From: a virus
Taxonomy: Duplodnaviria; Heunggongvirae; Uroviricota; Caudoviricetes
Strand: one strand, 5' to 3'
Length of the DNA: 64,000 nucleotides
Virus record (IMG/VR): IMGVR_UViG_3300044712_000123
In this document: positions 8,398 to 52,429 of the stretch, piece after piece
How positions within the stretch are numbered: position 1 is the stretch's first letter
How the letters are laid out: each line of letters begins with the position of its first letter
Translations under genes and position numbers: made by a program
Notes under the pieces: generated by a model
What the model saw: only the letters and a program-made list of their open reading frames with translations
The model's database searches: none
Told to the model about the DNA's origin: nothing

Positions 8398-8406
8398 TTA
8401 ATTAAT

Positions 8407-8493
8407 GCGTTGTGTTCCCTGTCGCCGGCTGTAACCCGGTGGTCATATTAAGCAGGGTGGCGGCAAGAGGTTCGATTCCTTCACAACGCACCA
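8407..8493 (+). tRNA. Atypical tRNA-Tyr(GTA)-like RNA lacking a canonical D-arm
   Basis: GCGTTGT/ACAACGC-A-CCA, GCCGG ctGTAac CCGGT, GGTTCGATTCC; only about 10 nt between acceptor and anticodon stems. Confidence 0.6.
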
Positions 8494-8579: not shown

Positions 8580-8654
8580 GGGCTGTTAGTGATAATGGGA
8601 GCACGGGGGCTTTGCACGTCCTAGGTAAGAGTTCGATTCTCTTACGGTCCACCA
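8580..8654 (+). tRNA. tRNA-Ala(TGC)
   Basis: G3.U70, GGGGC ttTGCac GTCCT, CCA. Confidence 0.88.
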
Positions 8655-8659
8655 GTTTT

Positions 8660-8724
8660 AGGATAGTAACAGCAACATTTATACTCTGAACTTTTAATTC
8701 AACCAGTAAAAATTCTATCCTGTT
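8660..8724 (+). ncRNA. CAGCAA-module RNA carrying a Lys(TTT) anticodon stem-loop
   Basis: AGGATAG-TAACAGCAA ... TGAA ctTTTaa TTCA ... CTATCCT-GTT. Confidence 0.7.
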
Positions 8725-8730
8725 TTATAT

Positions 8731-8805
8731 ACCCTCTTCGCCAAGTGGTAAGGCCCCGGATTTTGATTCCGGTATTCGGTGGTTCGAATCCATCAGGGGG
8801 TGCCA
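8731..8805 (+). tRNA. tRNA-Gln(TTG)
   Basis: CCGGA ttTTGat TCCGG, CCA. Confidence 0.9.
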
Positions 8806-8944: not shown

Positions 8945-9376
8945 ATGAAAAAACTAACATACAACTGTGTTAACTGCGGTAAAGAAAATAAATGGGGTGA
9001 CAGTAAAGTAAACAAGTATTGTGATAATGCTTGTCATGCCCAACATCGTAGAAAGATAATCCTTGAAGATTGGTTATCAGGAACTTACTTCAATAAAAAA
9101 GGTGTTCCACCTGAGGTAGCTAAAGAGTGGATTAGTGAACAACAGAATCACTCTTGTCTATTGTGCGGTATTACTGAATGGAATGGAAGTTCTATTGTCT
9201 TTCAGTTTGACCATATTGACGGTGATCCTGACCACAACACTAAAGAAAACATTAGAATGTTGTGTCCAAACTGTCATTCTCAAACAGAGACATACGGTGT
9301 AAAGAATAAAAAAGCGTCAGAAAGTAGACGGAATGTTTACAGACGAGAAAATTATAAAGATAAAAAGTCTCCGTAA
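8945..9376 (+). CDS. Freestanding HNH homing endonuclease
   Basis: CxxC, CLLCG..FQFDHIDGDPDHNTKENIRMLCPNCHSQT; stop codon lies inside tRNA-Arg. Confidence 0.9.
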   Translation: MKKLTYNCVNCGKENKWGDSKVNKYCDNACHAQHRRKIILEDWLSGTYFNKKGVPPEVAKEWISEQQNHSCLLCGITEWNGSSIVFQFDHIDGDPDHNTKENIRMLCPNCHSQTETYGVKNKKASESRRNVYRRENYKDKKSP

Positions 9377-9617: not shown

Positions 9618-9678
9618 AGGATCGGTTCAGCAACTCAAAAGCTAACTTTGGATGTCTAGCGACAAAAACGATCCTGTT
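9618..9678 (+). ncRNA. CAGCAA-module RNA (short; possible Gln TTG loop)
   Basis: AGGATCG-GTTCAGCAA ... AAAAA-CGATCCT-GTT. Confidence 0.7.
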
Positions 9679-10034: not shown

Positions 10035-10154
10035 GCCGCTGTCGTCTAATTGGCTAGGACGCTTAAAAAGGTGACTCTGACAAGAGTACATACAGCAACA
10101 TAAAAATTCCATTCTAAGGAAGTTATGGAGGTTCGAATCCTTCCGGCGGCACCA
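10035..10154 (+). tRNA. tRNA-Arg(TCT) interrupted by a 44-nt CAGCAA-module insertion
   Basis: Removing 10063-10106 gives a 76-nt cloverleaf (CTTCC atTCTaa GGAAG, GCCGCTG/CGGCGGC-A-CCA). Confidence 0.75.
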
Positions 10155-10159
10155 GTTTT

Positions 10160-10282
10160 AGGATACATTCAGCAACTAATACTTACGTCAACTAGCGTGT
10201 TGAGAGTTCGAACCTCTCCTTCGTTCTTATGGACGATGTAGCTCAATTGGTAGAGCAGCCAGCAAGTAAAAAGTATCCTGTC
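10160..10282 (+). ncRNA. CAGCAA-module RNA carrying a circularly permuted tRNA (T-arm, looped acceptor, D-arm)
   Basis: AGGATAC..GAGAG ttcgaac CTCTC-CTTCGTT/GACGATG-TAGCTC aattggta GAGC..GTATCCT. Confidence 0.75.
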
Positions 10283-11786: not shown

Positions 11787-11878
11787 GGAAAGTAATGCAG
11801 CGGGGATGGTCCTGCGACTGGCCTTGAAAACCAGGTTCTCTTAACGGGGATGGGGTTCGACTCCTCTGCTTTCCGCCA
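11787..11878 (+). tRNA. tRNA-Ser(TGA)
   Basis: CTGG ctTGAaa CCAG, long variable arm, G73, CCA. Confidence 0.85.
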
Positions 11879-13422: not shown

Positions 13423-13983
13423 ATGGCTGTTCTAGCACTAGATATTTCGGGAACTCCCCGGCAATGGATCTCATACGATGACGCAATCGCCTACCACGCA
13501 ACTGATTCAGTAGCATGGTCAATGGGCGAAATTGTTGCTAAGTATCATGGTGGCGTCCAAAAGGACGGATCACTGAGTTACCTAGAAACACCTAGCATCA
13601 TCGCTATTAAGGGACACGGGTACAACCCACATCGACACGCAAATGTAGCATTGACTAACCGAACCTTGTTCGGTCGAGACAGAAACGTTTGTGCATACTG
13701 TGGTGAACACTTCGCTAACTACAATCATCTAAGCCGCGACCATATCGTTCCACGATTCCATGGTGGCGAAAACACTTGGATGAACTGTGTTACTGCTTGC
13801 AAAGAATGTAACTCTAAAAAGGGTCACAAGACTTTGAAGGAAGCACGTATGGAACTGTTGTACGCTCCTTATGCGCCTAATCACTATGAAAACATGATTC
13901 TACAACATCGCACGATCCTCGCAGATCAGATGGAATACTTGATGGCAGGTGTGCCCAAGCATTCAAGAATCTTGCTTTCTTAG
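13423..13983 (+). CDS. HNH endonuclease
   Basis: RDRNVCAYCG..SRDHIVPRFHGGENTWMNCVTACKECNSKKG. Confidence 0.92.
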   Translation: MAVLALDISGTPRQWISYDDAIAYHATDSVAWSMGEIVAKYHGGVQKDGSLSYLETPSIIAIKGHGYNPHRHANVALTNRTLFGRDRNVCAYCGEHFANYNHLSRDHIVPRFHGGENTWMNCVTACKECNSKKGHKTLKEARMELLYAPYAPNHYENMILQHRTILADQMEYLMAGVPKHSRILLS

Positions 13984-14170: not shown

Positions 14171-14246
14171 TCTCCTATAGCTCAGTCGGTAGAGCGTTTG
14201 ACTGTTAATCAAAATGTCCGTGGTTCGAGCCCACGTAGGGGAGCCA
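14171..14246 (+). tRNA. tRNA-Asn(GTT)
   Basis: TTTGA ctGTTaa TCAAA, CCA. Confidence 0.92.
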
Positions 14247-15486: not shown

Positions 15487-15692
15487 GTAGTGTAGTTTAG
15501 GCTGATGGACGGCAATCTGTTCGCAGTCTGATACTTGACTTCCTGAGACAGTAGCTTTGCCGAGCGAATCACAGGGAAGTTCGATATGGTGGAATTGGCA
15601 AACACAGGTGCTTTTGAAGGCGTCTGAGGTTAAACTCTTGTAGGTTCGAATCCTACTATCGATTTATCAAGCGTCAGCCTAAACTACATTAC
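15487..15692 (+). ncRNA. Long stem-bounded RNA containing a Leu-type tRNA body (15581-15662) with aberrant anticodon loop and no CCA
   Basis: GTAGTGTAGTTTAGGCTGATG / CGTCAGCCTAAACTACATTAC; GGTGGAATTGGCAAACAC; GTAGG ttcgaat CCTAC. Confidence 0.6.
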
Positions 15693-16880: not shown

Positions 16881-16965
16881 GGAGATGAAGCATCAATGGT
16901 GATGCAGTGGACTGTAAATCCGCCGCTTTATAGCACGACTGGTTCGATCCCAGTAATCTCCACCA
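16881..16965 (+). tRNA. tRNA-Tyr(GTA)
   Basis: GTGGA ctGTAaa TCCGC, variable arm, CCA. Confidence 0.9.
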
Positions 16966-17483: not shown

Positions 17484-17567
17484 AGGCAAATAGATATCTT
17501 GTTTTGATGCATGGTATCTCAACGGTTGTAAGTGACGATGGGTGCTATCGGAACTTACGCAAATTTT

Positions 17568-17639
17568 GAAGTGAGTAGATGCTAGTTCGATTCTAGCCCT
17601 GCGTAAGAGTAGCATAATTTGGCAATGCAACTTACTTCA
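17568..17639 (+). ncRNA. YrlA-like permuted tRNA mimic (stem, T-arm, short capped acceptor, D-arm, stem)
   Basis: GAAGTGAGT/ACTTACTTC; GCTAG ttcgatt CTAGC; GCAT aatttggca ATGC. Confidence 0.55.
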
Positions 17640-17649
17640 TCACGATTAT

Positions 17650-17737
17650 GGAGCATTGGCCGACCGGTTAAGGCAACAGATTGCTAATCTGTCATTCAGC
17701 AATGGGTGAGTAGGTTCGATTCCTACATGCTCCGCCA
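17650..17737 (+). tRNA. tRNA-Ser(GCT)
   Basis: ACAGA ttGCTaa TCTGT, long arm, CCA. Confidence 0.92.
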
Positions 17738-17966: not shown

Positions 17967-18041
17967 GGGGGTATAATTCAACGGCTAGAATATCCGGCTT
18001 TTAACCGGTCTATCAGAGTTCGATTCTCTGTGCCCCTACCA
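17967..18041 (+). tRNA. tRNA-Lys(TTT)
   Basis: CCGG ctTTTaa CCGG, CCA. Confidence 0.9.
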
Positions 18042-18360: not shown

Positions 18361-18452
18361 GCCTCTATAGTTTAACGGTAAAACGGCGGATTTATATCCC
18401 GTAAGCAACAGATAATTGGTTCATCTGGGTTCGATTCCCGGTGGAGGCACCA
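18361..18452 (+). tRNA. tRNA-Ile(TAT) with long extra region
   Basis: GCGG-a ttTATat c-CCGT; about 22-nt variable region; CCA. Confidence 0.7.
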
Positions 18453-19737: not shown

Positions 19738-19847
19738 AGGATGTTTACAGCAAACAATCGTTTAAGGTTCAACTCCTTATTTTGCCACCAAACGCTCGAA
19801 AGGGCATCGGCAGAGTCGCGCAATGGGCGCAATCTACACATCCTGTT
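19738..19847 (+). ncRNA. CAGCAA-module RNA carrying a permuted tRNA with internal ACCA
   Basis: AGGATGT-TTACAGCAA..TAAGG ttcaact CCTTA-TTTTGCC-ACCA..GGCAGAG-TC-GCGC aatgg GCGC..ACATCCT-GTT. Confidence 0.7.
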
Positions 19848-20098: not shown

Positions 20099-20963
20099 GG
20101 GGGCTTAGCCTCATTAGAATAAGCATAGTGATATGCCCAAAGCGGTCGTCTCCTACAGACCCGCGCTAGAAATAGTTCATCTAAGCAAGCCTGCTTACAC
20201 CCGTGAGGGTGCGATCACTGATAAGACCGGTGGTTGTAACTGTAAAGCAAGTGTGTTGGAAAGAATGTCTGTTTATGTTCCCGTGAGGGTAAGACAGGCG
20301 GACAGAGAGTAACAGGTGGTGCTGACCTCAACACAAAACCAACTTGTCAACAGGTATAAGAAAAGGTAGTGTATTGATTCGAGGGGTTGCACCCAAGAGT
20401 TCGTATGCAGTTTGAGTGGTTAGTGGATATGTATGGTAACAGGCATATACACCGATCGTGAAAGACGACTGAGTAGTTCGCAAGACAAAAGGTACGTGGC
20501 GTGTTGTATTTTGTAGTCCAAAAGATTATGAAGCAACTGAGACAGCACATCACAGTAGGTTGTTATAGATCATTGGTAGATCAATTCTCTGTTAAAGAAT
20601 AGGCAGCAGGTTCAATTCCCGCTAACAAATAAAAAAGCAAAGTCTGTCTCGGTTGTATGTGAAAAGCATCTAATACTGGAGCCGCAAGGTAATTCAGTCA
20701 GACGTAACTCGCAAGGTGAAATCTGTTTATGCAGGAAGTTTCGTAAGTTGTTAGCGCAACTGAATGGCTCGCAAGGTCAGCGGAGTAGAAAGCGTAGAAT
20801 AGCATACAATGTCAAGTCTAATGCCTGACTTAAAACGGCGATGTTGGTAACAGACTAGGATACTCAGCAATGAGGCTTAGTGGAAATCAGAAGAAAGCAG
20901 TCTCGCAAGGATTGTAATAATGTCTGAGGTGTTACTCGGTAAGGATGTATTCTCAGTCCTCCA
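20099..20963 (+). ncRNA. GOLLD-like giant structured RNA (about 865 nt)
   Basis: ORF-free; many GNRA hairpins; GGGGGCT/AGTCCTCC end pairing; ACTGAGACAG/CTGTCTCGGT long-range pairing; located in a tRNA cluster and carrying an internal tRNA. Confidence 0.65.
20559..20629 (+). tRNA. tRNA-Asn(GTT)-like domain embedded in the giant RNA; no CCA
   Basis: GATC attggta GATC; ATTCT ctGTTaa AGAAT; GCAGG ttcaatt CCCGC; TTGTTA/TAACAA. Confidence 0.7.
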
Positions 20964-21894: not shown

Positions 21895-21968
21895 TGCGGG
21901 CGAGTGTGATGGTAGCACGTTGGGCTCATAACCCAGAGGGCCGGTTCGATTCCGAGGCTACGCAACCA
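21895..21968 (+). tRNA. tRNA-fMet(CAT)-like, irregular acceptor
   Basis: TTGGG ctCATaa CCCAG (3 G-C pairs), CCA. Confidence 0.7.
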
Positions 21969-22060: not shown

Positions 22061-22179
22061 AGGTTCATTTCAGCAATCAAAATAATCTTTCTGTAAAAAA
22101 GAGGGACTGGGTTCGAATCCCAGCAGTGAGTTGGTCTTCACTGTGGTGTAATGGTAGCACGAAAAAAGTTGAACCTGTT
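22061..22179 (+). ncRNA. CAGCAA-module RNA carrying a complete circularly permuted tRNA-Tyr(GTA)
   Basis: AGGTTCA-TTTCAGCAA..TCTTT ctGTAaa AAAGA..CTGGG ttcgaat CCCAG-CAGTGAG/TTCACTG-TG-GTGT aatggt AGCAC..TGAACCT-GTT. Confidence 0.8.
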
Positions 22180-28406: not shown

Positions 28407-29138
28407 ATGGATGATACGAAAATTTTCTGGCGCAGACATGAGCTACCTGTTGCAGAGTACTTAATGTCACATCAAGCTGGGTTGCGTGATGATTTCATGA
28501 GAGGTTTTGCAACCTTAGAGGAAGCAGCAAAAGCCCAAACTGAGGGTATTATGGCTAAAGAATGGCGCTTAAAGGATCGTATTAGACGCGGATTCTCAAA
28601 GGAAGATACAGAAAATTGTGTCACCACCGGTGATTCTGCAAATCTTGAGGGATGGAGAGCTATGCCCCTTCGTTACGAAAGACATGACGACATTAATATT
28701 AGTTATACAGCACCTGAGTCCTTTAAGGAAAGGTATCCAACTGCATATAAACTAATAACAGAATACGGGGATGACTGCCCAATCTCAAATTATACAGTTC
28801 TCGCTCCCAACACTGTATTGCATAGACATACTGGTGTTGAAAATCGCACAGGTGAATACATCCGTATCCACATCCCATTGATAATCCCTGAGGGTGATGT
28901 ATTCTTTGAAGCGAACAACGAAGAAATAGATTGGTCTGACATTTGGGGATTTCATAATCAGTTTGCACACTCTGCACACAACTATACAAACGAATGGCGT
29001 TTAGTATACCTAATAGACCTTCGCAGAACTTCTATCGGTCTGCCACCAGGAATGCCATATGATCCAAAATATGAATCAACAAACATGGCTCCGTTCGTAA
29101 GAAAAAATAAACCAAATCAGTTACCCAAAACTGTTTGA
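28407..29138 (+). CDS. Aspartyl/asparaginyl beta-hydroxylase-like oxygenase
   Basis: LHRHTG..RIHIPLIIP..FHNQFAHSAHN..RLVYLID. Confidence 0.85.
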   Translation: MDDTKIFWRRHELPVAEYLMSHQAGLRDDFMRGFATLEEAAKAQTEGIMAKEWRLKDRIRRGFSKEDTENCVTTGDSANLEGWRAMPLRYERHDDINISYTAPESFKERYPTAYKLITEYGDDCPISNYTVLAPNTVLHRHTGVENRTGEYIRIHIPLIIPEGDVFFEANNEEIDWSDIWGFHNQFAHSAHNYTNEWRLVYLIDLRRTSIGLPPGMPYDPKYESTNMAPFVRKNKPNQLPKTV

Positions 29139-29163
29139 CAACAACACTAAATTGTTATACAAT
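29135..29163 (+). promoter_or_regulatory. sigma70 promoter of ncRNA cluster
   Basis: TTGACA-17-TACAAT. Confidence 0.7.
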
Positions 29164-29184
29164 ACTTGTATTGAATGATTCAAA

Positions 29185-29440
29185 GGGATGATTTCAGAAT
29201 TTAAAAACATACTTAACTAATTACCATAGAAGGTGGTCGTAGGACACAGTAGCAATACTGTTCTAGGAAACTAGACTCGAAGGAATGGATGACAGAATGG
29301 AAAGACATTCTATGATGTTTGTACAGACACAATACAAACTAGTCAACATGAATTGTTGATATGGTTGAGGAACGTAAGTCCTTTATAGGTGAGTTAGACT
29401 CAACCAGACAATAAAATAAACTACGTTCAGACATCCCGTT
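29185..29440 (+). ncRNA. Long variant CAGCAA-module RNA with multi-hairpin cargo
   Basis: GGGATG-ATTTCAGAA..CATCCC-GTT; hairpins ACAGTA gcaa TACTGT, CTAG gaaa CTAG, GTTTGTA/TACAAAC, TCAACA/TGTTGA, TGGTTGAG/CTCAACCA. Confidence 0.6.
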
Positions 29441-29449
29441 TAATTTTTT

Positions 29450-29600
29450 AGGATCGGTACAGCAATAATTTACTTTATTGGAACTGATGGATCGCATGGT
29501 AGCTATTGGAGTCTACGGACGTTGAAGGTAGTTATTGAAATGCATCTATCGCAATAGGAGTGATGGCCCTATTCAAAAAGCAGTCAACAACGATCCTGTT
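29450..29600 (+). ncRNA. CAGCAA-module RNA with about 115-nt cargo
   Basis: AGGATCG-GTACAGCAA ... CGATCCT-GTT; inner ACTG/CAGT, GATGGAT/ATCTATC, AATAGG/CCTATT. Confidence 0.7.
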
Positions 29601-29626: not shown

Positions 29627-29655
29627 TTGACAAATAACACAAACAATGATACAAT
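29627..29655 (+). promoter_or_regulatory. sigma70 promoter; predicted start at the module RNA 29663
   Basis: TTGACA-17-TACAAT. Confidence 0.7.
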
Positions 29656-29662
29656 ACATTTT

Positions 29663-29719
29663 AGGATGCATTCAGCAACTTTAATCTTTTTCATAATAAG
29701 AGCAAAAGCGCATCCTGTT
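29663..29719 (+). ncRNA. CAGCAA-module RNA carrying a Met(CAT) anticodon stem-loop
   Basis: AGGATGC-ATTCAGCAA..TCTT-t ttCATaa t-AAGA..GCATCCT-GTT. Confidence 0.72.
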
Positions 29720-29744
29720 GCAAAATTCATAGAAAGGAACTATA

Positions 29745-31169
29745 ATGCAATTCGCAGAAGCAATCAAAAACCAAGAAGTTCGTACTACTAATGGTATGAA
29801 GGCACGTAAGTCAAGCGCAAACGCTTGTGTAGACTTGTTCTACAACCTAGGTGCAAGCCGAGGTAAAAACGTTATCCCAGCATTCACTGCGGCTTATGTC
29901 GAGAACAGTGATCTGGCACTGCGTATTGCACAGTGGGCACGTGATGCCCGCGGTGGTTCCGGTGAACGCCAAGTGTTCCGAGATATTCTTGTTCACTTGG
30001 AAAAGACTAACCCAGAAGACGCTATGCGTTTGATGGCGAAGATCCCAGAAATCGGTCGTTATGACGACTTGCTAGTGTTTAAGACTCAGCCTGTGAAGGC
30101 TAAGGCATACACTATGCTTGGCGATGCACTTCGTGCCCGTAACGGTCTCGCGGCTAAGTGGACTCCTCGTAAGGGTGAAGTCGCACGTGAAATCCGCGAA
30201 TTCTTCGGAATGACTCCTAAGCAATACCGTAAGAGCCTTGTTGCACTTACTAACGTTGTGGAAACACAAATGTGTGCTAAGGATTGGGATAACATCAACT
30301 TCTCGCATGTTCCTTCAGTGGCACATGCACGTTACAAGAAGGCGTTTGGCCGTAATGGCACAACTTACGCTGAATACGTAACTAAGTTGGTTAAGGGCGA
30401 AGCAGGTGTCAAAATCAACGCTGGTGCAGTTTTCCCTTACGATGTGTTGAAGGGTGCTATCAACCGATACAGCCGTTCAGCTATGTCTAAGACTGAGTTG
30501 GATGCATTGCAAGCCCAATGGGACGCATTGCCTAACTACGTCGGTGACGCTAACGTGTTGCCTATGGTTGACTCGTCAGGTTCGATGACTTGCGCGGCAG
30601 GTGGTTACAACTCTAAGTCAGGCTTGTCTTGCTTGGATGTTGCACTGTCTTTGGGCTTGTACTTCGCTGACAAGAACAAGGGTAAGTTCAAGGATACGTT
30701 CTTGACTTTCTCTAACACACCAAAGTTGGTTAACTTGAAGGGTAACATCAATCAAAAGATTGACCAAATGAACACAGGCGAAGTTGCTAACACCAACTTG
30801 AATGCGGCGTTCAACTTGATCCTCAAGACAGCGTTGGACAACAATGTTCCTCAAGCAGAAATGCCAGAAACATTGGTGATCTTCTCTGACATGCAGTTCG
30901 ACCAAGGCGTTAAGCACGATGACAGCGCAATCGAAATGATTGCACGTAAGTATGAAGCCGCAGGCTACGCGATCCCTAAGGTCGTGTTCTGGAACTTGAA
31001 TGCCGCTTATGGCAACACCCCTGTCAAGTTCGATAAGAGTGGTACCGCTCTTGTCTCTGGTTTCAGCCCAGCTGTTGCAACTTCTGTATTGTCAGGAGAC
31101 TTGGAAGACTTCACACCAGAAGCTATCATGTTGAAGACAGTTATGAAGGATCGTTACGACTTGTCGTAA
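29745..31169 (+). CDS. DUF2828-family TROVE-like/vWA protein (Ro60-like architecture)
   Basis: N-terminal TTNG..VDLF..RDARGGSGERQVF..GRYDDL..AKWTPR helical region; vWA MIDAS VDSSGSM..T..SDMQFD..VFWNL..VSGFS. Confidence 0.8.
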   Translation: MQFAEAIKNQEVRTTNGMKARKSSANACVDLFYNLGASRGKNVIPAFTAAYVENSDLALRIAQWARDARGGSGERQVFRDILVHLEKTNPEDAMRLMAKIPEIGRYDDLLVFKTQPVKAKAYTMLGDALRARNGLAAKWTPRKGEVAREIREFFGMTPKQYRKSLVALTNVVETQMCAKDWDNINFSHVPSVAHARYKKAFGRNGTTYAEYVTKLVKGEAGVKINAGAVFPYDVLKGAINRYSRSAMSKTELDALQAQWDALPNYVGDANVLPMVDSSGSMTCAAGGYNSKSGLSCLDVALSLGLYFADKNKGKFKDTFLTFSNTPKLVNLKGNINQKIDQMNTGEVANTNLNAAFNLILKTALDNNVPQAEMPETLVIFSDMQFDQGVKHDDSAIEMIARKYEAAGYAIPKVVFWNLNAAYGNTPVKFDKSGTALVSGFSPAVATSVLSGDLEDFTPEAIMLKTVMKDRYDLS

Positions 31170-33534: not shown

Positions 33535-33708
33535 ATGAAACAAGTCGTTTACAAAGGTTCAGTGTTAGCTAAAGGTAGTACTGCACTTGAACTGTGGGAA
33601 AACTGGCAAAAAGAAAAGAAAGATCGGAACGCCGCTCAAAAGAAGCTGGACGTCCATATGAAAGAAGTCGAACAGCGTCACCGAGACTTGCTGGATCGAT
33701 ACAAATAA
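33535..33708 (+). CDS. Small hypothetical protein (57 aa)
   Basis: Downstream of TTGACT-17-TATAAT at 33476. Confidence 0.6.
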   Translation: MKQVVYKGSVLAKGSTALELWENWQKEKKDRNAAQKKLDVHMKEVEQRHRDLLDRYK

Positions 33709-33722
33709 GAAAAGAGAATAAT

Positions 33723-34190
33723 ATGCCTTGGATTGAAAATTGTGCGGCTGATGATATCCCAAAGAGATTTCACCACGAAGCCGGTGAGAATAGTATGCTG
33801 ATTAGCATTACAGACCCAGCAAGTTGGAGACCAACTCCTGCTCACAAGTTCAAAGAGATTCACAATTTTGAATTCTTGGATATTGAAAAAGACGATTTTG
33901 CATTGGACGAGGCAATGCGTTGTAGTCAAGAGCAAGCAAACGAATTAGTCCGATTGTTGCAACATGCAAAGGAAAATCGAATGAACGTTGTGGTTCATTG
34001 CTTTGCAGGTATCTGTCGCAGTGGTGCAGTGTGTGAGGTTGGTGTCATGATGGGTTTTGAAGACACTGGCAGATTTCGCAGTCCTAACTTGCTTGTCAAG
34101 CATCGCATGATGCGCGCCCTCGGCTGGACCTACGATGAGGATGAGAAACCGAATGTCGATGACTGGAGAACTTTTAGGAACGACAATTAA
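33723..34190 (+). CDS. Protein-tyrosine/dual-specificity phosphatase-like protein
   Basis: VVVHCFAGICRSG (CX5R). Confidence 0.85.
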   Translation: MPWIENCAADDIPKRFHHEAGENSMLISITDPASWRPTPAHKFKEIHNFEFLDIEKDDFALDEAMRCSQEQANELVRLLQHAKENRMNVVVHCFAGICRSGAVCEVGVMMGFEDTGRFRSPNLLVKHRMMRALGWTYDEDEKPNVDDWRTFRNDN

Positions 34191-34235
34191 TGATAAAAGT
34201 GCTTGGTTGGGATAAATAAGTATATAGGAGAAATC

Positions 34236-34886
34236 ATGAATACTTATCCAACTAAAGCAAAACCGTATGTTTATCGCTGTACTAACAAAATCACTGGTCA
34301 TTTTTATATAGGATATCGTGAGGCGAATGTTAAACTGAATAGGATACCAGAAATTGATTTTCCGTTATATAAGAGTTCTTCAAAAGCAGTTAAGGACAAC
34401 TTTGACAATTTTGAATGGACTATCGTAGCAGAATTTGAGACTGGTAAAGATGCGTATTCATTTGAGCAAAAATTGATTCATGAGCACTGGAATGAACCAT
34501 TACTCTTGAACGAACATTGCTGTCACAATGAACAACAATTCAGAAGATCGGCACCACCGTGGAATAAAGGAAGAACAGGGTTATATAGCAGAACTGATGA
34601 TACCAGGCAGAAAATAAAACAAAAACGAGCACTTCAAGTTATGGGAGAATCTCCTTTAAAGGGAAAGTCATATAATGATATTCACGGGGAAGATGCAGTA
34701 TCTTTGAAGAAGAAAATTTCTGAAAAAATGTTAAGCGCAGGTATAAAAAGAACCGAAGAGTTTAAAGAAAATTTGAGAAAACCAAAAGAGAAAATCACTT
34801 GCCCACATTGCGGTAAAACAGGGGGTGGTGGTTCAATGATTCAATGGCACTTTGATAAATGTAAAAATAGGAATTTAGATGTTTAA
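34236..34886 (+). CDS. GIY-YIG homing endonuclease with NUMOD3-like repeats
   Basis: YVYRCTNKITGHFYIGYR; PWNKG; TRQKIK; C-terminal CPHCGK..WHFDKC. Confidence 0.8.
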   Translation: MNTYPTKAKPYVYRCTNKITGHFYIGYREANVKLNRIPEIDFPLYKSSSKAVKDNFDNFEWTIVAEFETGKDAYSFEQKLIHEHWNEPLLLNEHCCHNEQQFRRSAPPWNKGRTGLYSRTDDTRQKIKQKRALQVMGESPLKGKSYNDIHGEDAVSLKKKISEKMLSAGIKRTEEFKENLRKPKEKITCPHCGKTGGGGSMIQWHFDKCKNRNLDV

Positions 34887-35168: not shown

Positions 35169-35360
35169 ATGGGTTACAATACAAAACACTTTGACCATGA
35201 AGCACACTATGCTTCCAAGTCAACAAAAGAACTTGAGGCACTGTTAAAACAGGCTGAAAAGTTTGTACAGGATCATCCTAAGTTTGAATTCAGTTGGCAC
35301 AATGAGTATCGCCATAAATTGAAACTGTTGATTGCAGAAAGAATTGGAAAAAGAAAATGA
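35169..35360 (+). CDS. Hypothetical protein
   Basis: AGGAG RBS, 63 aa. Confidence 0.7.
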   Translation: MGYNTKHFDHEAHYASKSTKELEALLKQAEKFVQDHPKFEFSWHNEYRHKLKLLIAERIGKRK

Positions 35361-35899
35361 CAAAATGGATTACAAGTGACCTGCATTTCGGTCACGCAAA
35401 TATTATGAAGTTCTGCCCAGTAACACGGGCAGGCTTCACTGACACCGATCACATGCGTGAGCAAATGATCTCCGAGTGGAACCGTGACGTTAAGCCAGAA
35501 GATGAAACATTCATTCTGGGTGACTTTGCATTCTTGCCGGCTAAGGATGCAGTCGCAATCTTGCGCCGATTGAACGGTACAAAGATTTTGATTGAAGGTA
35601 ATCACGACCGCAAACTGTTGAACGACCCTAGTTTCCGTAATGAGTTCAAAGAAGTTCACCAGTACTTGCGTTATGTGCATGAAGGCACTACTGTGATTAT
35701 GTTGCACTATCCTATCTTGGAATGGGACCAGATGCATCGTGGAGCAGTTCATTTCTATGGACACGTTCATGGTGCAAAGACTGGTATGGAAAAGTATCGT
35801 TGTCGTGACGTAGCGTTTGACGCTACTGGTCGAGTTGTTAGCAACTTGGACATGATGATTAAAGACGCATTGAAAGGTGAGATTAAGTCTCACCACTAA
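35357..35899 (+). CDS. Calcineurin-like metallophosphoesterase
   Basis: SDLHFGH, LGDF, GNHD, HY, GHVH. Confidence 0.92.
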   Translation: MTKWITSDLHFGHANIMKFCPVTRAGFTDTDHMREQMISEWNRDVKPEDETFILGDFAFLPAKDAVAILRRLNGTKILIEGNHDRKLLNDPSFRNEFKEVHQYLRYVHEGTTVIMLHYPILEWDQMHRGAVHFYGHVHGAKTGMEKYRCRDVAFDATGRVVSNLDMMIKDALKGEIKSHH

Positions 35900-37175: not shown

Positions 37176-37438
37176 ACAAACAAATCAAAGAACTTGCTGA
37201 ACAGGCTGGACTCAGAATTGAGTATCAGATGATTAACCCGCCCAAGCCTTTTCAGATTCTTGGTAGTACTGAACAGTTTGAAAAGTTCGCCGAGTTGATT
37301 ATCAATGACTGTGCTAGTCTATGTGAGATTGAAAGCCGATCATACACTTATTCTTTCACACCAGCAAAGGCACGATTAGCAGAATCTACTGCAAAGAATT
37401 GCGGTACAATAATCAAACGACATTTTGGAGTCGAATAA
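37172..37438 (+). CDS. Small paralogous protein (IKELA.QA..EKFAELI..HFGVE family)
   Basis: Similar to 38963 and 51334. Confidence 0.75.
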   Translation: MNKQIKELAEQAGLRIEYQMINPPKPFQILGSTEQFEKFAELIINDCASLCEIESRSYTYSFTPAKARLAESTAKNCGTIIKRHFGVE

Positions 37439-38340
37439 TGTTTAAAGAAGAATTGAAAAAGTACGTAGAGACTTCGGGCCTAGTGAACATGAAAGAGGCT
37501 GGCGCCGGCATCTTCATCTTGAAGTATAAGAAGAAGGTGTTCTACGATAACCTGTGGAACGAGTACATCGCTGAATGCCGTGGATCAGTGATTGATAAGG
37601 ATTTCAACCTAGTTGCTTATCCCTTCACAAAAATCTACAACTATGGCATTGAGAAAGAAGCACCCGTGCTTTCTGACGACACTCAAGTAACTGCTTTCCG
37701 TAAGGTTAATGGTTTCATGGTTGCAGTTTCGTATCACAACGGTGACGTTTTTGTATCTACTACAGGTTCTACTTTGGGTGACTATGTTGGCTATGCTAAG
37801 GATATGATGCTAAAGCACATGCCCTGGAGTGACTGGCAAATGGCACTAGCAGCCGATGACTGCCGAGACATGACCTTCATGTTTGAGTGCGTACATCCCA
37901 ACGATCCTCATATCGTGGTTGAAAAGCCAGGTATGTACATCTTGGGTTATCGTGAAAAGACTTGGGGGTCTAAGGTAGGTCATGATGTTTTCATGCTACA
38001 AGAACTTGGTCATGTGTTCAACTGTTTTGTACCAGAAAGCGTAACAACTAACCTGGCACAACTAAAGATCATGGTCAAGGAATGTAAGCACGAAGGCTTT
38101 GTGTTCTATACACAGGACGGAGTTAGCTCTAAGATCAAGAGTCCATACTACTTGACTTCAAAGTGGGTAGCACGTAACCCTCGTACAGACAAGCTAGTTG
38201 ACCTGAACAAGGACATCAAGCAAAATCTGGACGAAGAATACTACCCACTAGTGGATGCAATTCGTGCTAACATCGTTGAATACACTAGTATGGACGAGCA
38301 AGCTCGCCTAGCATGGGTTCGTAATTTTGTGAGTGCGTGA
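37438..38340 (+). CDS. T4 Rnl1-like RNA ligase
   Basis: ECRG....PFTKIYN; motif I KVNG; TFMFE; EGFV; KIKS..Y. Confidence 0.85.
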   Translation: MFKEELKKYVETSGLVNMKEAGAGIFILKYKKKVFYDNLWNEYIAECRGSVIDKDFNLVAYPFTKIYNYGIEKEAPVLSDDTQVTAFRKVNGFMVAVSYHNGDVFVSTTGSTLGDYVGYAKDMMLKHMPWSDWQMALAADDCRDMTFMFECVHPNDPHIVVEKPGMYILGYREKTWGSKVGHDVFMLQELGHVFNCFVPESVTTNLAQLKIMVKECKHEGFVFYTQDGVSSKIKSPYYLTSKWVARNPRTDKLVDLNKDIKQNLDEEYYPLVDAIRANIVEYTSMDEQARLAWVRNFVSA

Positions 38341-51380: not shown

Positions 51381-51630
51381 TCATTACCCGGACGTGGGTG
51401 GAGCAACACTCGAAAAGTTTGCAGAATTGCTACTAGAAAAGGTAATCGAAGTAGTACAGCAAACACCAATTCATTGCGCAAGCACTACCTTTCAGCTAGG
51501 TATTGTTGAATGCACGATTGATAAAAGCGTGGAAGCAATCGAACAAACGTTCGGTATCCCACATAAACACAGGGACACAAATGAAAATCGCACTCGCATC
51601 GGACTTGCATCTAGAGTTTCAGGACATTGA
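51334..51630 (+). CDS. KFAELL family paralog
   Basis: EIALQAGG..EKFAELL. Confidence 0.6.
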   Translation: MNKEIFKEIALQAGGSHYPDVGGATLEKFAELLLEKVIEVVQQTPIHCASTTFQLGIVECTIDKSVEAIEQTFGIPHKHRDTNENRTRIGLASRVSGH

Positions 51631-52429
51631 ACTGAAAAACACTGAGGGTGCAGAAGTCCTCATTCTGTCAGGTGACATTATGATTGCAGATTACTTGCAC
51701 GATCATCCTAGCCCTGACCCATACACCCCAGGTGGTATGAAAGAGTACGGGCACAAATTGCTTATGAGCATTCGCTTCCGTGACTTCCTCAAACGGGTGA
51801 GTTTTGAGTTCCCTCACGTTATTTACGTTGCAGGTAACCACGAGTTCTATCACGGCAAGTGGAAAGGTAGTTTGGATGACTTGCGCTTTCAGTGTGCTCA
51901 GTTGCCTAACGTTTACTTTTTAGAAAACGATATCAAGACAATCGGTGAGCATACGTTCATTGGTTGTACCTTGTGGACTGACTGCAACAACGGTGATCCA
52001 TTGACACTTCACTGTCTCACTGACATGATGAACGACTTTAGGATCATTCGTAACGACACCCTTGGGTACACTAAGTTGCGTCCTGCGCACACACTAAGCC
52101 GTCACGTTCAAAGCAAACAGTACATCAAGAATATCGTTCAAGGTATGCATGATGAAAAGTTTGTGGTAGTAGGACACCATGCACCTAGCAAGTTGAGTAC
52201 GCACGAACGCTATCAACATGCTGTCCATTCTACAATGAACGGTGGCTATAGTAGTGACTTGAGCGAATTCATTATGGATCATCCTCAGATCAAATTGTGG
52301 ACGCATGGACACATGCACGACCCATTTGATTACGTGATTGGTGAGACTAGAATCGTTTGTAACCCTCGTGGTTACGGTGGTCATGATCCTCAGGCTGATG
52401 TGTTTGAGTTGAAGTTTTTGGAGATTTAA
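51581..52429 (+). CDS. Calcineurin-like metallophosphoesterase
   Basis: SDLHLE, SGDI, AGNHE, GHHAP, HGHMH, NPRGY. Confidence 0.93.
   Translation: MKIALASDLHLEFQDIELKNTEGAEVLILSGDIMIADYLHDHPSPDPYTPGGMKEYGHKLLMSIRFRDFLKRVSFEFPHVIYVAGNHEFYHGKWKGSLDDLRFQCAQLPNVYFLENDIKTIGEHTFIGCTLWTDCNNGDPLTLHCLTDMMNDFRIIRNDTLGYTKLRPAHTLSRHVQSKQYIKNIVQGMHDEKFVVVGHHAPSKLSTHERYQHAVHSTMNGGYSSDLSEFIMDHPQIKLWTHGHMHDPFDYVIGETRIVCNPRGYGGHDPQADVFELKFLEI

What the first reader, a model, noticed from the sequence alone, without database searches (positions are those of the whole stretch)
8660..8724. Module RNAs displaying bare anticodon stem-loops: possible anticodon-nuclease decoys
Seen: the cargo at 8660 is TGAA-ctTTTaa-TTCA (Lys UUU loop) and at 29663 TCTT-t-ttCATaa-t-AAGA (Met CAU loop); 9618 has a ctTTGga (Gln-like) loop with weaker pairing. 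Established: tRNA-Lys(UUU) is the target of PrrC and the PARIS nuclease, tRNA-fMet of enteric VapC, and tRNA-Tyr of colicin E5 and retron PtuAB. Inference: these 57-65 nt RNAs present anticodon loops on a protected scaffold to titrate or inhibit host anticodon nucleases or tRNA-sensing defence.
Basis: partly seen in the sequence, partly recalled or inferred. Interest (0 to 1): 0.85.

Follow-up and report, generated by a model that had tools for sequence, protein, structure and literature searches.

The report
Phage Y-like RNAs displaying anticodon arms
A giant phage's tRNA operon encodes small RNAs that hold out a look-alike of a tRNA anticodon arm on a conserved handle, which most likely docks to a phage Ro60-like protein; they could be baits or decoys for host enzymes that cut tRNA anticodons, but that function is untested.

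Summary
The RNA at 8655-8730 is a real member of a widespread phage RNA family. It has a covarying handle helix (AGNNNNN/NNNNNCU-G) and an unpaired CAGCAA box. Its cargo is an anticodon-arm mimic with loop CUUUUAA.

Of 137 distinct short cargos, 63 carry a Y-U-NNN-R-N 7-nt hairpin loop, against 6.0±2.3 in shuffles. The triplets are natural anticodons: UUU, UGU, UCU, UGA, GUU and others. A34 and A35 are almost absent, and position 36 is U or A. The triplet varies far more between orthologous scaffolds than the rest of the cargo.

The 29663 RNA is the promoter-proximal leader of a DUF2828 gene whose model folds like Ro60. Its CAU loop belongs to a conserved YAUA class. The 9618 "Gln-like" loop is not supported.

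It also fits the targets of the PARIS nuclease AriB (Lys, Thr, Asn; U36AAU) and a nearby Rnl1-like ligase. It remains unproven; I put it at about 0.35. Rivals are generic Y-RNA tethering, targeting of A37-modification enzymes, and a cis leader role.

This scan has reported the same family on other DNA several times, anticodon-arm cargos included. I found no publication or Rfam family.

The parts
8655..8730 (+). Whole anticodon-arm RNA: the complete spacer between tRNA-Ala (8580-8654) and tRNA-Gln (8731-8805)
   Evidence: There is no promoter of its own, so its ends would be set by tRNA processing. In the family, 35/63 have a tRNA ending within 12 nt upstream and 33/63 a tRNA starting within 20 nt downstream.
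8660..8666 (+). Handle helix, 5' strand AGGAUAG (pairs with 8715-8721)
   Evidence: 217/239 AGGAU-type and 98/157 other 5' halves have an exact closing strand, against 0.5 expected.
8670..8675 (+). Unpaired CAGCAA box, invariant in the family
   Evidence: invariant columns C11-A15, A16 at least 90%
8686..8702 (+). Anticodon-arm mimic CUGAA-CUUUUAA-UUCAA; the triplet UUU is at 8693-8695
8715..8722 (+). Handle helix, 3' strand CUAUCCU plus conserved G
9618..9676 (+). Second handle RNA. Its cargo is not an anticodon arm; a UGUC-UAGC-GACA hairpin is conserved.
29627..29655 (+). Sigma-70-like promoter (TTGACA-17-TACAAT, with a TG extension) placed to start transcription at the 29663 RNA
29663..29717 (+). 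Handle RNA 28 nt upstream of the DUF2828 start codon; hairpin 29685-29701 with loop UUUCAUAAU (CAU at 29692-29694)
   Evidence: In about 47 loci a short handle RNA ends 20-41 nt before the homologous gene.
29745..31169 (+). DUF2828/DUF7788 protein with a Ro60-like fold (helical ring plus vWA); presumed partner of the handle
22061..22177 (+). Handle RNA whose cargo is a complete circularly permuted tRNA look-alike with anticodon arm UCUUU-CUGUAAA-AAAGA (GUA). It links the bare arms to tRNA.
10160..10280 (+). Handle RNA with a T arm, closed acceptor and D arm (YrlA-like), without an anticodon arm
   Evidence: (RF02553 34 bits, below the cut-off of 69)
10063..10106 (+). Rotated copy of the handle inserted between the D arm and anticodon arm of a tRNA-Arg(UCU)-like gene (10035-10154)
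   Evidence: (read by eye), note e1-5387673
19738..19845 (+). Handle RNA (CAGCAA) whose cargo includes a T arm followed by CCA
29450..29598 (+). Handle RNA with a conserved large cargo (~125 nt), directly upstream of the 29663 RNA
29184..29440 (+). Variant handle RNA (GGGAUG/CAUCCC, box CAGAAU) with a large cargo, behind a second promoter (29135-29163)
   Evidence: pairing read by eye
17967..18041 (+). The phage's real tRNA-Lys(UUU); its anticodon arm UCCGG-CUUUUAA-CCGGU (C39, GC-rich) differs from the mimic
37399..38340 (+). T4 Rnl1-like RNA ligase (context: tRNA repair)
   Evidence: PF09511, E 4e-10

Best explanation
SHOWN OR STRONGLY SUPPORTED (about 0.9). The 8655-8730 RNA belongs to a large phage family of Y-RNA-like small RNAs. 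A constant handle closes the RNA: a 7-bp helix beginning AG and ending CU-G, an unpaired CAGCAA box and an A-rich 3' linker. The handle most likely docks to the phage's Ro60-like DUF2828 protein, whose gene sits beside these RNAs. The variable cargo is made of tRNA parts: a whole permuted tRNA, the T/acceptor/D 'top half', or only an anticodon arm, as here. The RNA is transcribed within the tRNA operon and would be released by the tRNA-processing cuts on either side.

INFERRED (about 0.35; this is the confidence given for the explanation as a whole). The bare arm offers a canonical anticodon loop (C32-U33-NNN-A37-A38 on a generic AU-rich 5-bp stem) to a protein that reads anticodon loops. The best candidate is a host anticodon nuclease of the PARIS-AriB, PrrC or colicin type. 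The Ro-like particle would keep the RNA stable and abundant. The RNA would then act as a competitive pseudo-substrate, or as a bait that ties the nuclease or the damage signal to the Ro-like protein and the phage's Rnl1-type repair genes. The triplet would be retuned as host nucleases change.
For: FAMILY AND HANDLE
- The 5' motif alone found at least 120 IMG/VR loci, and 116/134 matches have the complementary closing strand.
- A descriptor finds 358 modules in 1.14 Mb, against 11 in reversed sequence and roughly 25 chance hits (38 descriptor hits, about a dozen of them genuine Felix-type modules) in 1.03 Mb of mostly unrelated viral DNA.
- Closing strands are found for 217/239 and 98/157 5' halves, against 0.5 expected, with stem variants AGGAU, AGAAU, AGGUU, AGACC and others.
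- The family also occurs in cultured phages SUSP2, KVP40, Cronobacter S13 and Citrobacter Ci1.

PROTEIN LINK
- 64/122 loci fetched by the RNA motif alone hold a DUF2828 homolog, usually with a handle RNA 20-41 nt upstream of it.
- The 13 best PDB matches of the DUF2828 model are all Ro60.

ANTICODON-ARM CARGO
- 104/137 short cargos have a 7-nt hairpin loop (shuffles 48.5±5.3). 63 are Y-U-NNN-R-N (6.0±2.3) and 58 are Y-U-NNN-A-A (3.2±1.8). The mirror pattern occurs 3 times.
- The stem is 5 bp in 49/63. Position 37 is A in 62/63 and position 32 is C in 57/63.
- All 5 stem pairs covary.
- Position 34 is U in 43, G in 17, C in 2 and A in 1, although the cargo is 50% A (P=4e-18; 2e-10 on the 37 distinct arms).
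- The 22061 RNA carries the same kind of arm inside a complete permuted tRNA.

THE TRIPLET MATTERS
- In near-identical scaffolds there are 0.264 differences per site in the triplet, against 0.092 elsewhere. 23 of 33 differences within the arm lie at positions 34-36.
- L018 and L036 differ only by UGA versus GUA.
- Orthologs of the 22061 RNA carry GUA, ACG, UAG or GGA on one scaffold.
- S13 and Ci1 carry UAA and CAA respectively.

NUCLEASE LINK
- The commonest mimics are UUU (15), UGU (11) and UCU and UGA (7 each); GUU has 5.
- AriB of PARIS cleaves tRNA-Lys(UUU), then Thr(UGU), then Asn(GUU), which share U36AAU. Phage T5 answers with resistant tRNAs (PMC12409363).
- All U36 mimics have A31-U39. 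The phages' own tRNA-Lys mostly have C39; the window's has UCCGG/CCGGU.
- An Rnl1-like ligase and phosphatases lie within 8 kb of the DUF2828 gene.
Against: - No binding, cleavage or phenotype data exist.
- Mimic stems are generic and AU-rich (GC 0.18-0.30, against 0.53-0.70 in real arms). One stem carries many different triplets, and none equals a real arm with the same anticodon. The RNAs therefore copy the loop, not a particular tRNA. A nuclease that reads or cuts the stem, such as AriB at 40|41, may not accept them; only some carry UAAUCA.
- Anticodons ending in C or G are 45% of the phages' own tRNAs and include known nuclease targets (Glu, Gln, His, Asp). They are almost absent among the mimics: 2/63.
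- The host is unknown.
- Hypervariability of positions 34-35 could reflect relaxed constraint rather than an arms race. The comparison rests on 29 non-independent pairs.
- The sequences are related, so shuffle statistics overstate independence; there are 37 distinct arms.
- Evidence of expression is weak: metatranscriptome contigs of relatives only.
Confidence: 0.35

Rival explanations
1. Generic Y-RNA role. The RNA gates or tethers the Ro60-like protein, for example to host PNPase, as in Deinococcus and Thermus phage phiLo. The anticodon-arm shape is a remnant of the family's tRNA ancestry, and the triplet has no specific reader.
For: The Ro60-like fold and gene linkage. Known Y RNAs tether Ro60 to PNPase, and phage phiLo Ro60 with its Yrl RNAs binds host PNPase (PMC4201824, PMC12135203). 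Many family members have cargos that are not anticodon arms. The generic AU-rich stems and fast-changing positions 34-35 fit weak constraint.
Against: Positions 32, 33, 37 and 38 and the 5-bp/7-nt geometry are tightly kept. The variable triplet avoids A at 34 and 35 in a 50%-A RNA and stays within natural anticodons. Drift would not produce that.
Confidence: 0.25
2. The arm is aimed at enzymes other than nucleases that read anticodon loops, above all the A37-hypermodification machinery (t6A for U36-A37, i6A for A36-A37-A38). It would either become modified itself, or recruit or sequester those enzymes at the Ro-like particle.
For: 61/63 mimics have U36 or A36 followed by A37, and 58/63 have A38. 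By my own knowledge of tRNA modification, these are the determinants of the two hypermodified-A37 classes. C36/G36 anticodons are missing (P=1e-7 against the phages' own tRNAs). Bacterial YrlA is a substrate of tRNA-modifying enzymes (PMC4201824).
Against: No known benefit to a phage has been described, and the idea is untested. AT-rich composition explains part of the U/A preference at position 36. Aminoacyl-tRNA synthetases are unlikely readers, because Ser and Leu mimics occur and, from my knowledge, SerRS and LeuRS ignore the anticodon.
Confidence: 0.2
3. Cis-acting element. The RNAs are processing spacers of the tRNA operon or, for 29663, an autoregulatory 5' leader of the DUF2828 mRNA. 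They would not be trans-acting mimics.
For: The 29663 RNA starts at a strong promoter and ends 28 nt before the start codon. This arrangement recurs in about 47 loci. The 8660 RNA exactly fills an inter-tRNA spacer.
Against: The same handle occurs far from the gene, inside tRNA-like RNAs and as a rotated insert in a tRNA. The ribosome-binding site at 29730-29740 is not sequestered. A processing spacer needs neither a covarying anticodon arm nor natural triplets.
Confidence: 0.1
4. Chance hairpins in AT-rich spacers, or a miniature mobile element whose inverted ends mimic a helix.
For: The single-sequence fold is not exceptional (z -1.5). The handle strands are inverted repeats flanked by GTTTT in two copies.
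Against: Compensatory changes occur at variable handle and arm positions. The family-wide enrichment over shuffles is large. The flanks are conserved rather than insertion-specific, and the strand always matches the tRNAs and DUF2828.
Confidence: 0.02

Closest known systems
YrlA-type Y RNAs with Ro60/Rsr (Rfam RF02553; Chen et al. 2014, PMC4201824)
   Same: Small RNAs encoded beside a Ro60-type protein gene on the same strand. The 5' and 3' ends form a closing stem with a conserved motif on the 5' strand. The cargo mimics tRNA. They occur in phages as well (mycobacteriophage 'Ro-like' proteins match this DUF2828 at 32-33% identity).
   Different: The handle motif is CAGCAA, not GNCGAA. The protein is DUF2828, with no sequence-level PDB match. 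Only the tRNA-like member reaches 34 bits against a cut-off of 69. YrlA lacks an anticodon arm, whereas here the arm can be the entire cargo and its triplet varies.
Thermus phage phiLo Ro60 with Yrl1/Yrl2 (PMC12135203; PDB 9KOP, 9L5Y)
   Same: It is the best structural match of the DUF2828 model (E 4e-8, TM 0.54). It is a phage Ro60 with phage-encoded partner RNAs upstream of its gene.
   Different: Its Yrl RNAs were picked by the CGAA motif and are proposed to recruit host PNPase. No anticodon-arm cargo is described.
Nuclease-resistant phage tRNAs (T5 tRNA-Lys/Thr/Asn against PARIS AriB; PMC11464382, PMC12409363)
   Same: Both would be counter-measures encoded in phage tRNA clusters against anticodon-arm nucleases, and the same anticodons dominate (UUU, UGU, GUU).
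   Different: Those are functional replacement tRNAs that escape cleavage. The RNAs here cannot be charged and would work, if at all, as pseudo-substrates or baits.
Pseudo-substrate RNA inhibitors of ribonuclease defences (ToxI, and phage pseudo-ToxI against ToxN; own knowledge, not checked here)
   Same: An RNA that occupies a defence RNase as a decoy, and that phages can encode.
   Different: Unrelated sequence and fold, and no protein scaffold. This is an analogy of mechanism only.

Membership tests
Y RNA / YrlA (partners of Ro60) | Encoded next to a Ro60-type protein gene, on the same strand | tested here: met
   29663 lies 28 nt upstream of the gene; 64/122 loci fetched by the RNA motif hold the gene; the protein model matches Ro60 structures.
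Y RNA / YrlA (partners of Ro60) | The 5' and 3' ends pair into a closing stem | tested here: met
   compensatory changes; 97-100% of cells paired in the handle helices.
Y RNA / YrlA (partners of Ro60) | Conserved Ro-binding motif GNCGAAN0-1G / GGUCCGA on the 5' strand | tested here: not met
   The invariant motif here is CAGCAA; the published motif is quoted.
Y RNA / YrlA (partners of Ro60) | Reaches the Rfam RF02553 gathering score | tested here: not met
   the only hits are 10178-10280 (34.2 bits) and 17556-17655 (24.5 bits), against a cut-off of 69. There are none at 8660, 9618 or 29663.
Y RNA / YrlA (partners of Ro60) | tRNA-like T and D arms (the YrlA subfamily) | tested here: not met
   Absent from 8660, 9618 and 29663. 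Present in the sister RNAs at 10160 and 22061.
Y RNA / YrlA (partners of Ro60) | Physically bound by the Ro60-type protein | not testable with these tools
   Needs EMSA or co-purification.
tRNA anticodon arm (structural mimicry, not tRNA membership) | 5-bp stem, 7-nt loop, U33, purine 37 | tested here: met
   the stem is 5 bp in 49/63 and A37 is present in 62/63; U33 was required by the selection pattern. The window copy has 4 bp plus a C.A.
tRNA anticodon arm (structural mimicry, not tRNA membership) | Triplet drawn from the natural anticodon repertoire | tested here: met
   14 of 15 distinct triplets are natural; A34 occurs in 1/63.
Functional tRNA | Acceptor stem with a free CCA end, plus D and T arms | tested here: not met
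   ARAGORN does not call it, and no acceptor, D or T arm is present in 8655-8730.
Anticodon-nuclease decoy (no established family) | Cleaved by, or inhibits, an anticodon nuclease; rescues phage growth | not testable with these tools
   Circumstantial only: overlap with AriB targets and the U36AAU39 motif.

The most novel reading that the evidence does not exclude
Phages run a programmable 'anticodon display' particle. A Ro60-like ring protein holds a set of handle RNAs whose exposed anticodon loops act as pseudo-substrates or baits for host anticodon nucleases (PARIS AriB, PrrC and others). The triplet is swapped between Lys, Thr, Arg, Asn, Ser, Tyr and other identities as host nucleases change. 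This would be an RNA-based anti-defence layer alongside replacement tRNAs and RNA ligase repair.
Probability: 0.3. Interest if true: 0.9.

Novelty: new variant of a known kind. Interest (0 to 1): 0.75.

Why it matters
tRNA anticodon arms are now known to be a main target of bacterial anti-phage immunity (PARIS, PrrC, retron/Septu PtuAB, Cas13, Schlafens). The known phage answers are replacement tRNAs and RNA repair.

A widespread, uncatalogued RNA family shows only an anticodon arm on a Ro60-type handle, with a fast-changing but always natural triplet. It points to a third answer: decoy, bait or recruitment. It would also give the long-unexplained tRNA mimicry of Y RNAs a concrete, testable purpose.

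The family occurs in cultured phages, so the hypothesis can be tested directly with existing AriB and PrrC assays. The carriers seen here are SUSP2 on E. coli MG1655, KVP40, Cronobacter S13 and Citrobacter Ci1. Even if the decoy idea fails, the handle and its Ro60-like partner define a new kind of viral ribonucleoprotein.

Tried and rejected
- Rfam: no family covers the handle RNAs. The only hits are weak YrlA matches on tRNA-like members and one chance match (Dictyostelium class I RNA) at 29664.
- PDB by sequence for DUF2828: nothing. The fold search was needed.
- Literature: searches for DUF2828 with Y RNA, TROVE/RtcB/phage, and anticodon/decoy/phage gave no description of this family or of anticodon-arm decoys.
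- No whole genome is held for this window. The closest cultured phage has only 47% protein identity, so the host tRNAs and host nucleases could not be compared.
- A megablast of the tRNA island found only tRNA-sized matches.
- A second IMG/VR scan with the Felix-type handle (14 specified bases) returned mostly chance matches and served only as a negative control.
- Metatranscriptome contigs contain tRNA-plus-handle pieces from relatives. They cannot show ends, abundance or cleavage.
- MFE folding of single modules misplaces the hairpin in AT-rich cargo, so I replaced it with explicit hairpin enumeration.

Considered and dropped:
- A pseudoknot between the loop and the A-rich linker. The apparent link between a UGU loop and a GC outer stem is lineage covariation of the outer stem.
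- A MITE-like element (see rivals).
- Mimicry of the phage's own tRNAs. No identical arms were found.
- Aminoacyl-tRNA synthetases as readers.

Full report
WHAT IS THERE

The window is part of a large uncultured phage with 49 tRNA genes on the + strand. The flagged stretch is the complete spacer between tRNA-Ala (8580-8654) and tRNA-Gln (8731-8805). It reads:
- handle 5' strand AGGAUAG
- three bases, then CAGCAA
- outer stem UAC
- CUGAA-CUUUUAA-UUCAA
- CCA, then GUA closing the outer stem
- an A-rich linker
- handle 3' strand CUAUCCU-G

Seven RNAs in the window share the full frame: 8660, 9618, 10160, 19738, 22061, 29450 and 29663. There is also a variant at 29184 and a rotated copy inserted in a tRNA-Arg-like gene at 10063-10106. 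No promoter lies in front of 8660, so it would be cut out of the tRNA polycistron.

THE HANDLE IS A REAL RNA HELIX AND DEFINES A LARGE FAMILY

- The 5' motif alone (TTTAGGATNNNNNCAGCAAC) found at least 120 IMG/VR loci. In 116 of 134 matches the variable bases are complemented by a closing strand downstream.
- A general descriptor (AG+N5, 2-5 nt, CAGCA/CAGAA, cargo, complement+CU+G) finds 358 modules (322 distinct) in 1.14 Mb. It finds 11 in reversed sequence and roughly 25 chance hits (38 descriptor hits, about a dozen of them genuine Felix-type modules) in 1.03 Mb of mostly unrelated viral DNA.
- Starting from 5' halves only, 217/239 AGGAU-type and 98/157 other handles have an exact closing strand, against 0.5 expected. 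Stem variants include AGGAU, AGAAU, AGGUU, AGAGU and AGACC.
- The same family is present in cultured phages: E. coli phage SUSP2, Vibrio phage KVP40, Cronobacter S13 and Citrobacter Ci1.
- Rfam 15 has no model for it.

THE PARTNER PROTEIN

- ORF 29745-31169 is DUF2828/DUF7788 and PHROG 850, 'RNA-binding protein'. It has homologs in 702 phage records.
- It has no sequence-level PDB match. A model built from 26 homologs (pLDDT 76.7) has Ro60 proteins as its 13 best PDB matches, led by Thermus phage phiLo Ro60 (E 4e-8, TM 0.54).
- Of 122 loci fetched only by the RNA motif, 64 contain a homolog. In about 47 of them a short handle RNA ends 20-41 nt upstream of the start codon on the same strand.
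- In the window a near-consensus promoter (29627-29655) is placed to start transcription at the 29663 RNA.
- An Rnl1-like RNA ligase (37399-38340) and several phosphatases lie nearby.

Among 137 distinct short cargos (50 nt or less):

| Feature | Observed | Dinucleotide shuffles |
|---|---|---|
| Hairpin of at least 4 bp closing a 7-nt loop | 104 | 48.5±5.3 |
| Loop Y-U-NNN-R-N | 63 | 6.0±2.3 (max 13 in 300) |
| Loop Y-U-NNN-A-A | 58 | 3.2±1.8 |
| Mirror-image pattern | 3 | 6.4±2.3 |

(All.)

- In the 63, the stem is 5 bp in 49, position 32 is C in 57, position 37 is A in 62 and position 38 is A in 58.
- In a 63-sequence alignment all five arm pairs change on both sides. 90% of cells pair, against 71% in shuffles and 22-41% when partners are slid. 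The rows were chosen for having such a hairpin, so the covariation is the informative part, not the percentage paired.
- The triplets are UUU 15, UGU 11, UCU 7, UGA 7, GUU 5, GGA 3, GUA 3, GCA 2, UAU 2, CUU 2 and GCU 2, with GAU, GGU, UUG and one doubtful ACC once each.
- Position 34 is U 43, G 17, C 2, A 1, which is the wobble pattern of real tRNAs. Position 35 has only 3 A. The surrounding cargo is 50% A (P=4e-18 and 3e-15; 2e-10 and 5e-8 on the 37 distinct arms).
- Position 36 is U (46) or A (15). In the phages' own 848 distinct tRNA arms, 45% have C or G there.

The link to tRNA is direct. The 22061 RNA carries the same kind of arm (UCUUU-CUGUAAA-AAAGA) followed by a variable region, a T arm, a loop-closed acceptor and a D arm. 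23 of 115 mid-sized cargos have an arm in front of a T arm.

THE THREE NAMED EXAMPLES

- 8660 holds. Its closest homologs keep the arm through changes such as CUGAA/UUCAA to CUAGA/UCUAA or UUGAA/UUCAA.
- 29663 is the DUF2828-proximal class. Loops are 7-9 nt with a YAUA core: UUUCAUAAU, ACUCAUAUA, AAGCAUAUC, ACUAUAAUC. U33 is often missing. 'CAU' is there, but this looks like a conserved motif in a leader RNA and not a free anticodon.
- 9618 fails. There is no stem around CUUUGGA. Four homologs differ in length at that point and share a UGUC-UAGC-GACA hairpin.

FEATURES THAT BEAR ON FUNCTION

(a) The triplet is the fastest-changing part.
- In 29 pairs of near-identical scaffolds there are 0.264 differences per site in the triplet, against 0.092 elsewhere.
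- Within the arm, 23 of 33 differences lie at positions 34-36 and only 2 at positions 32, 33, 37 and 38.
- L018 and L036 differ only by UGA versus GUA.
- Orthologs of the 22061 RNA carry GUA, ACG, UAG or GGA. S13 and Ci1 carry UAA and CAA.

(b) The stems are generic.
- A few AU-rich stems (UUUGA/UCAAA, UUCAA/UUGAA, UUAGA/UCUAA, UUUCA/UGAAA) each carry several triplets.
- GC content is 0.18-0.30, against 0.53-0.70 in real arms.
- No mimic equals a real arm with the same anticodon.

(c) All U36 mimics have A31-U39, so they read A-C-U-N-N-U-A-A-U.
- The PARIS nuclease AriB cleaves E. coli tRNA-Lys(UUU), Thr(UGU) and, less well, Asn(GUU) at 40|41. These share U36AAU (UAAUC|A in Lys and Thr).
- T5 escapes with variant tRNAs (PMC12409363).
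- Some mimics (UUUGA-CUUUUAA-UCAAA) carry exactly UAAUCA; others do not.
- The window's own tRNA-Lys(UUU) has a GC-rich arm with C39, as do 12 of 20 distinct phage tRNA-Lys arms.

INTERPRETATION

Identity is well supported: a Y-RNA-like handle RNA of a Ro60-like phage protein, carrying an anticodon-arm mimic.

For function I rank the readings as follows:
1. Display to an anticodon nuclease, as decoy or bait: about 0.35. It fits the conserved loop geometry, the natural but fast-changing triplets, the U36AAU39 motif, the repair-gene context and the known arms race over tRNA arms.
2. A generic Y-RNA tether with a vestigial arm: 0.25.
3. Aiming at A37-hypermodification enzymes: 0.2. This is the simplest reading of the strict U36/A36-A37-A38 rule.
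4. A cis leader or spacer role: 0.1, mainly for 29663.

None of these can be settled without experiments.

RELATION TO EARLIER WORK

The closest described systems are YrlA/Y RNAs with Ro60 (PMC4201824) and phage phiLo Ro60 with its Yrl RNAs (PMC12135203). They differ from the RNAs here in handle motif, protein family and cargo.

Other agents of this scan have reported the same handle family on other DNA, including anticodon-arm cargos. I treated those notes as leads only.

New here:
- the quantitative tabulation
- the natural-anticodon and U36/A36 rules
- the triplet hypervariability
- the contrast with the phages' own tRNA arms

Noticed in passing
window 20496-20959: A full-length GOLLD RNA (Rfam RF02032, 215.7 bits, E 5e-60) sits inside the tRNA island, with a tRNA-Asn (20558-20631) embedded in it.
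   Followed up: no
window 15579-15665: ARAGORN calls an 87-nt tRNA with a four-base anticodon (UUGA). It may be a frameshift-suppressor-like tRNA or a tRNA mimic. Rfam scores it only 35.8 bits as tRNA.
   Followed up: no
window 18361-18452: tRNA-Ile(UAU) is 92 nt long, much longer than a class I tRNA. It may carry an insertion like the handle insert in the tRNA-Arg-like gene at 10035-10154.
   Followed up: no
window 8406-8490, 11787-11874, 16881-16962, 21896-21964: Further tRNA-like stretches that ARAGORN does not call. They give weak Rfam tRNA or tRNA-Sec hits of 26-36 bits and are possible additional tRNA mimics or degenerate tRNAs.
   Followed up: no
window 33594-34190, 35357-35899, 37399-38340, 51503-52429: A dual-specificity-phosphatase-like protein, two metallophosphoesterases and a T4 Rnl1-like RNA ligase lie downstream of the DUF2828 gene. 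Together they look like an RNA end-healing and sealing set.
   Followed up: partly
window 8945-9376, 13423-13983, 34203-34886: HNH and GIY-YIG homing-endonuclease-like ORFs are interspersed in and next to the tRNA island.
   Followed up: no
L123 21872-22114 (Cronobacter phage S13); L124 21988-22101 (Citrobacter phage Ci1); L125 11731-11844 (Aeromonas phage Ahp1): Records annotate 113-121-nt 'tRNA-Ser', 'tRNA-OTHER' or 'tRNA-Pseudo' features downstream of the DUF2828 gene. In S13 these overlap handle-bearing tRNA-like RNAs (descriptor hits at 21923 and 22130), so they are probably misannotated Y-like RNAs.
   Followed up: partly
L121 7876-7933; L184; L195; L227 (Felix O1-type phages): One short handle RNA of Felix-type phages keeps a GCGGA / AUCGGAA loop across relatives. 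This is a third conserved loop class that is neither a variable anticodon nor YAUA.
   Followed up: no
window 29450-29598 and about 40 loci (e.g. L004, L020, L030): A ~125-140-nt cargo with conserved blocks (GGUAG..CUGGAG..GUUGAAGG..GAGUGAUGGCC..AAAGCAGUCAACAA) recurs directly upstream of the DUF2828-proximal short RNA. It has no Rfam match and its fold is unknown.
   Followed up: no
window 14171-14246: The phage's real tRNA-Asn(GUU) has the anticodon stem UUUGA/UCAAA. The same AU-rich stem is used by many mimics with other triplets, so it is a possible source of the generic mimic stem.
   Followed up: no
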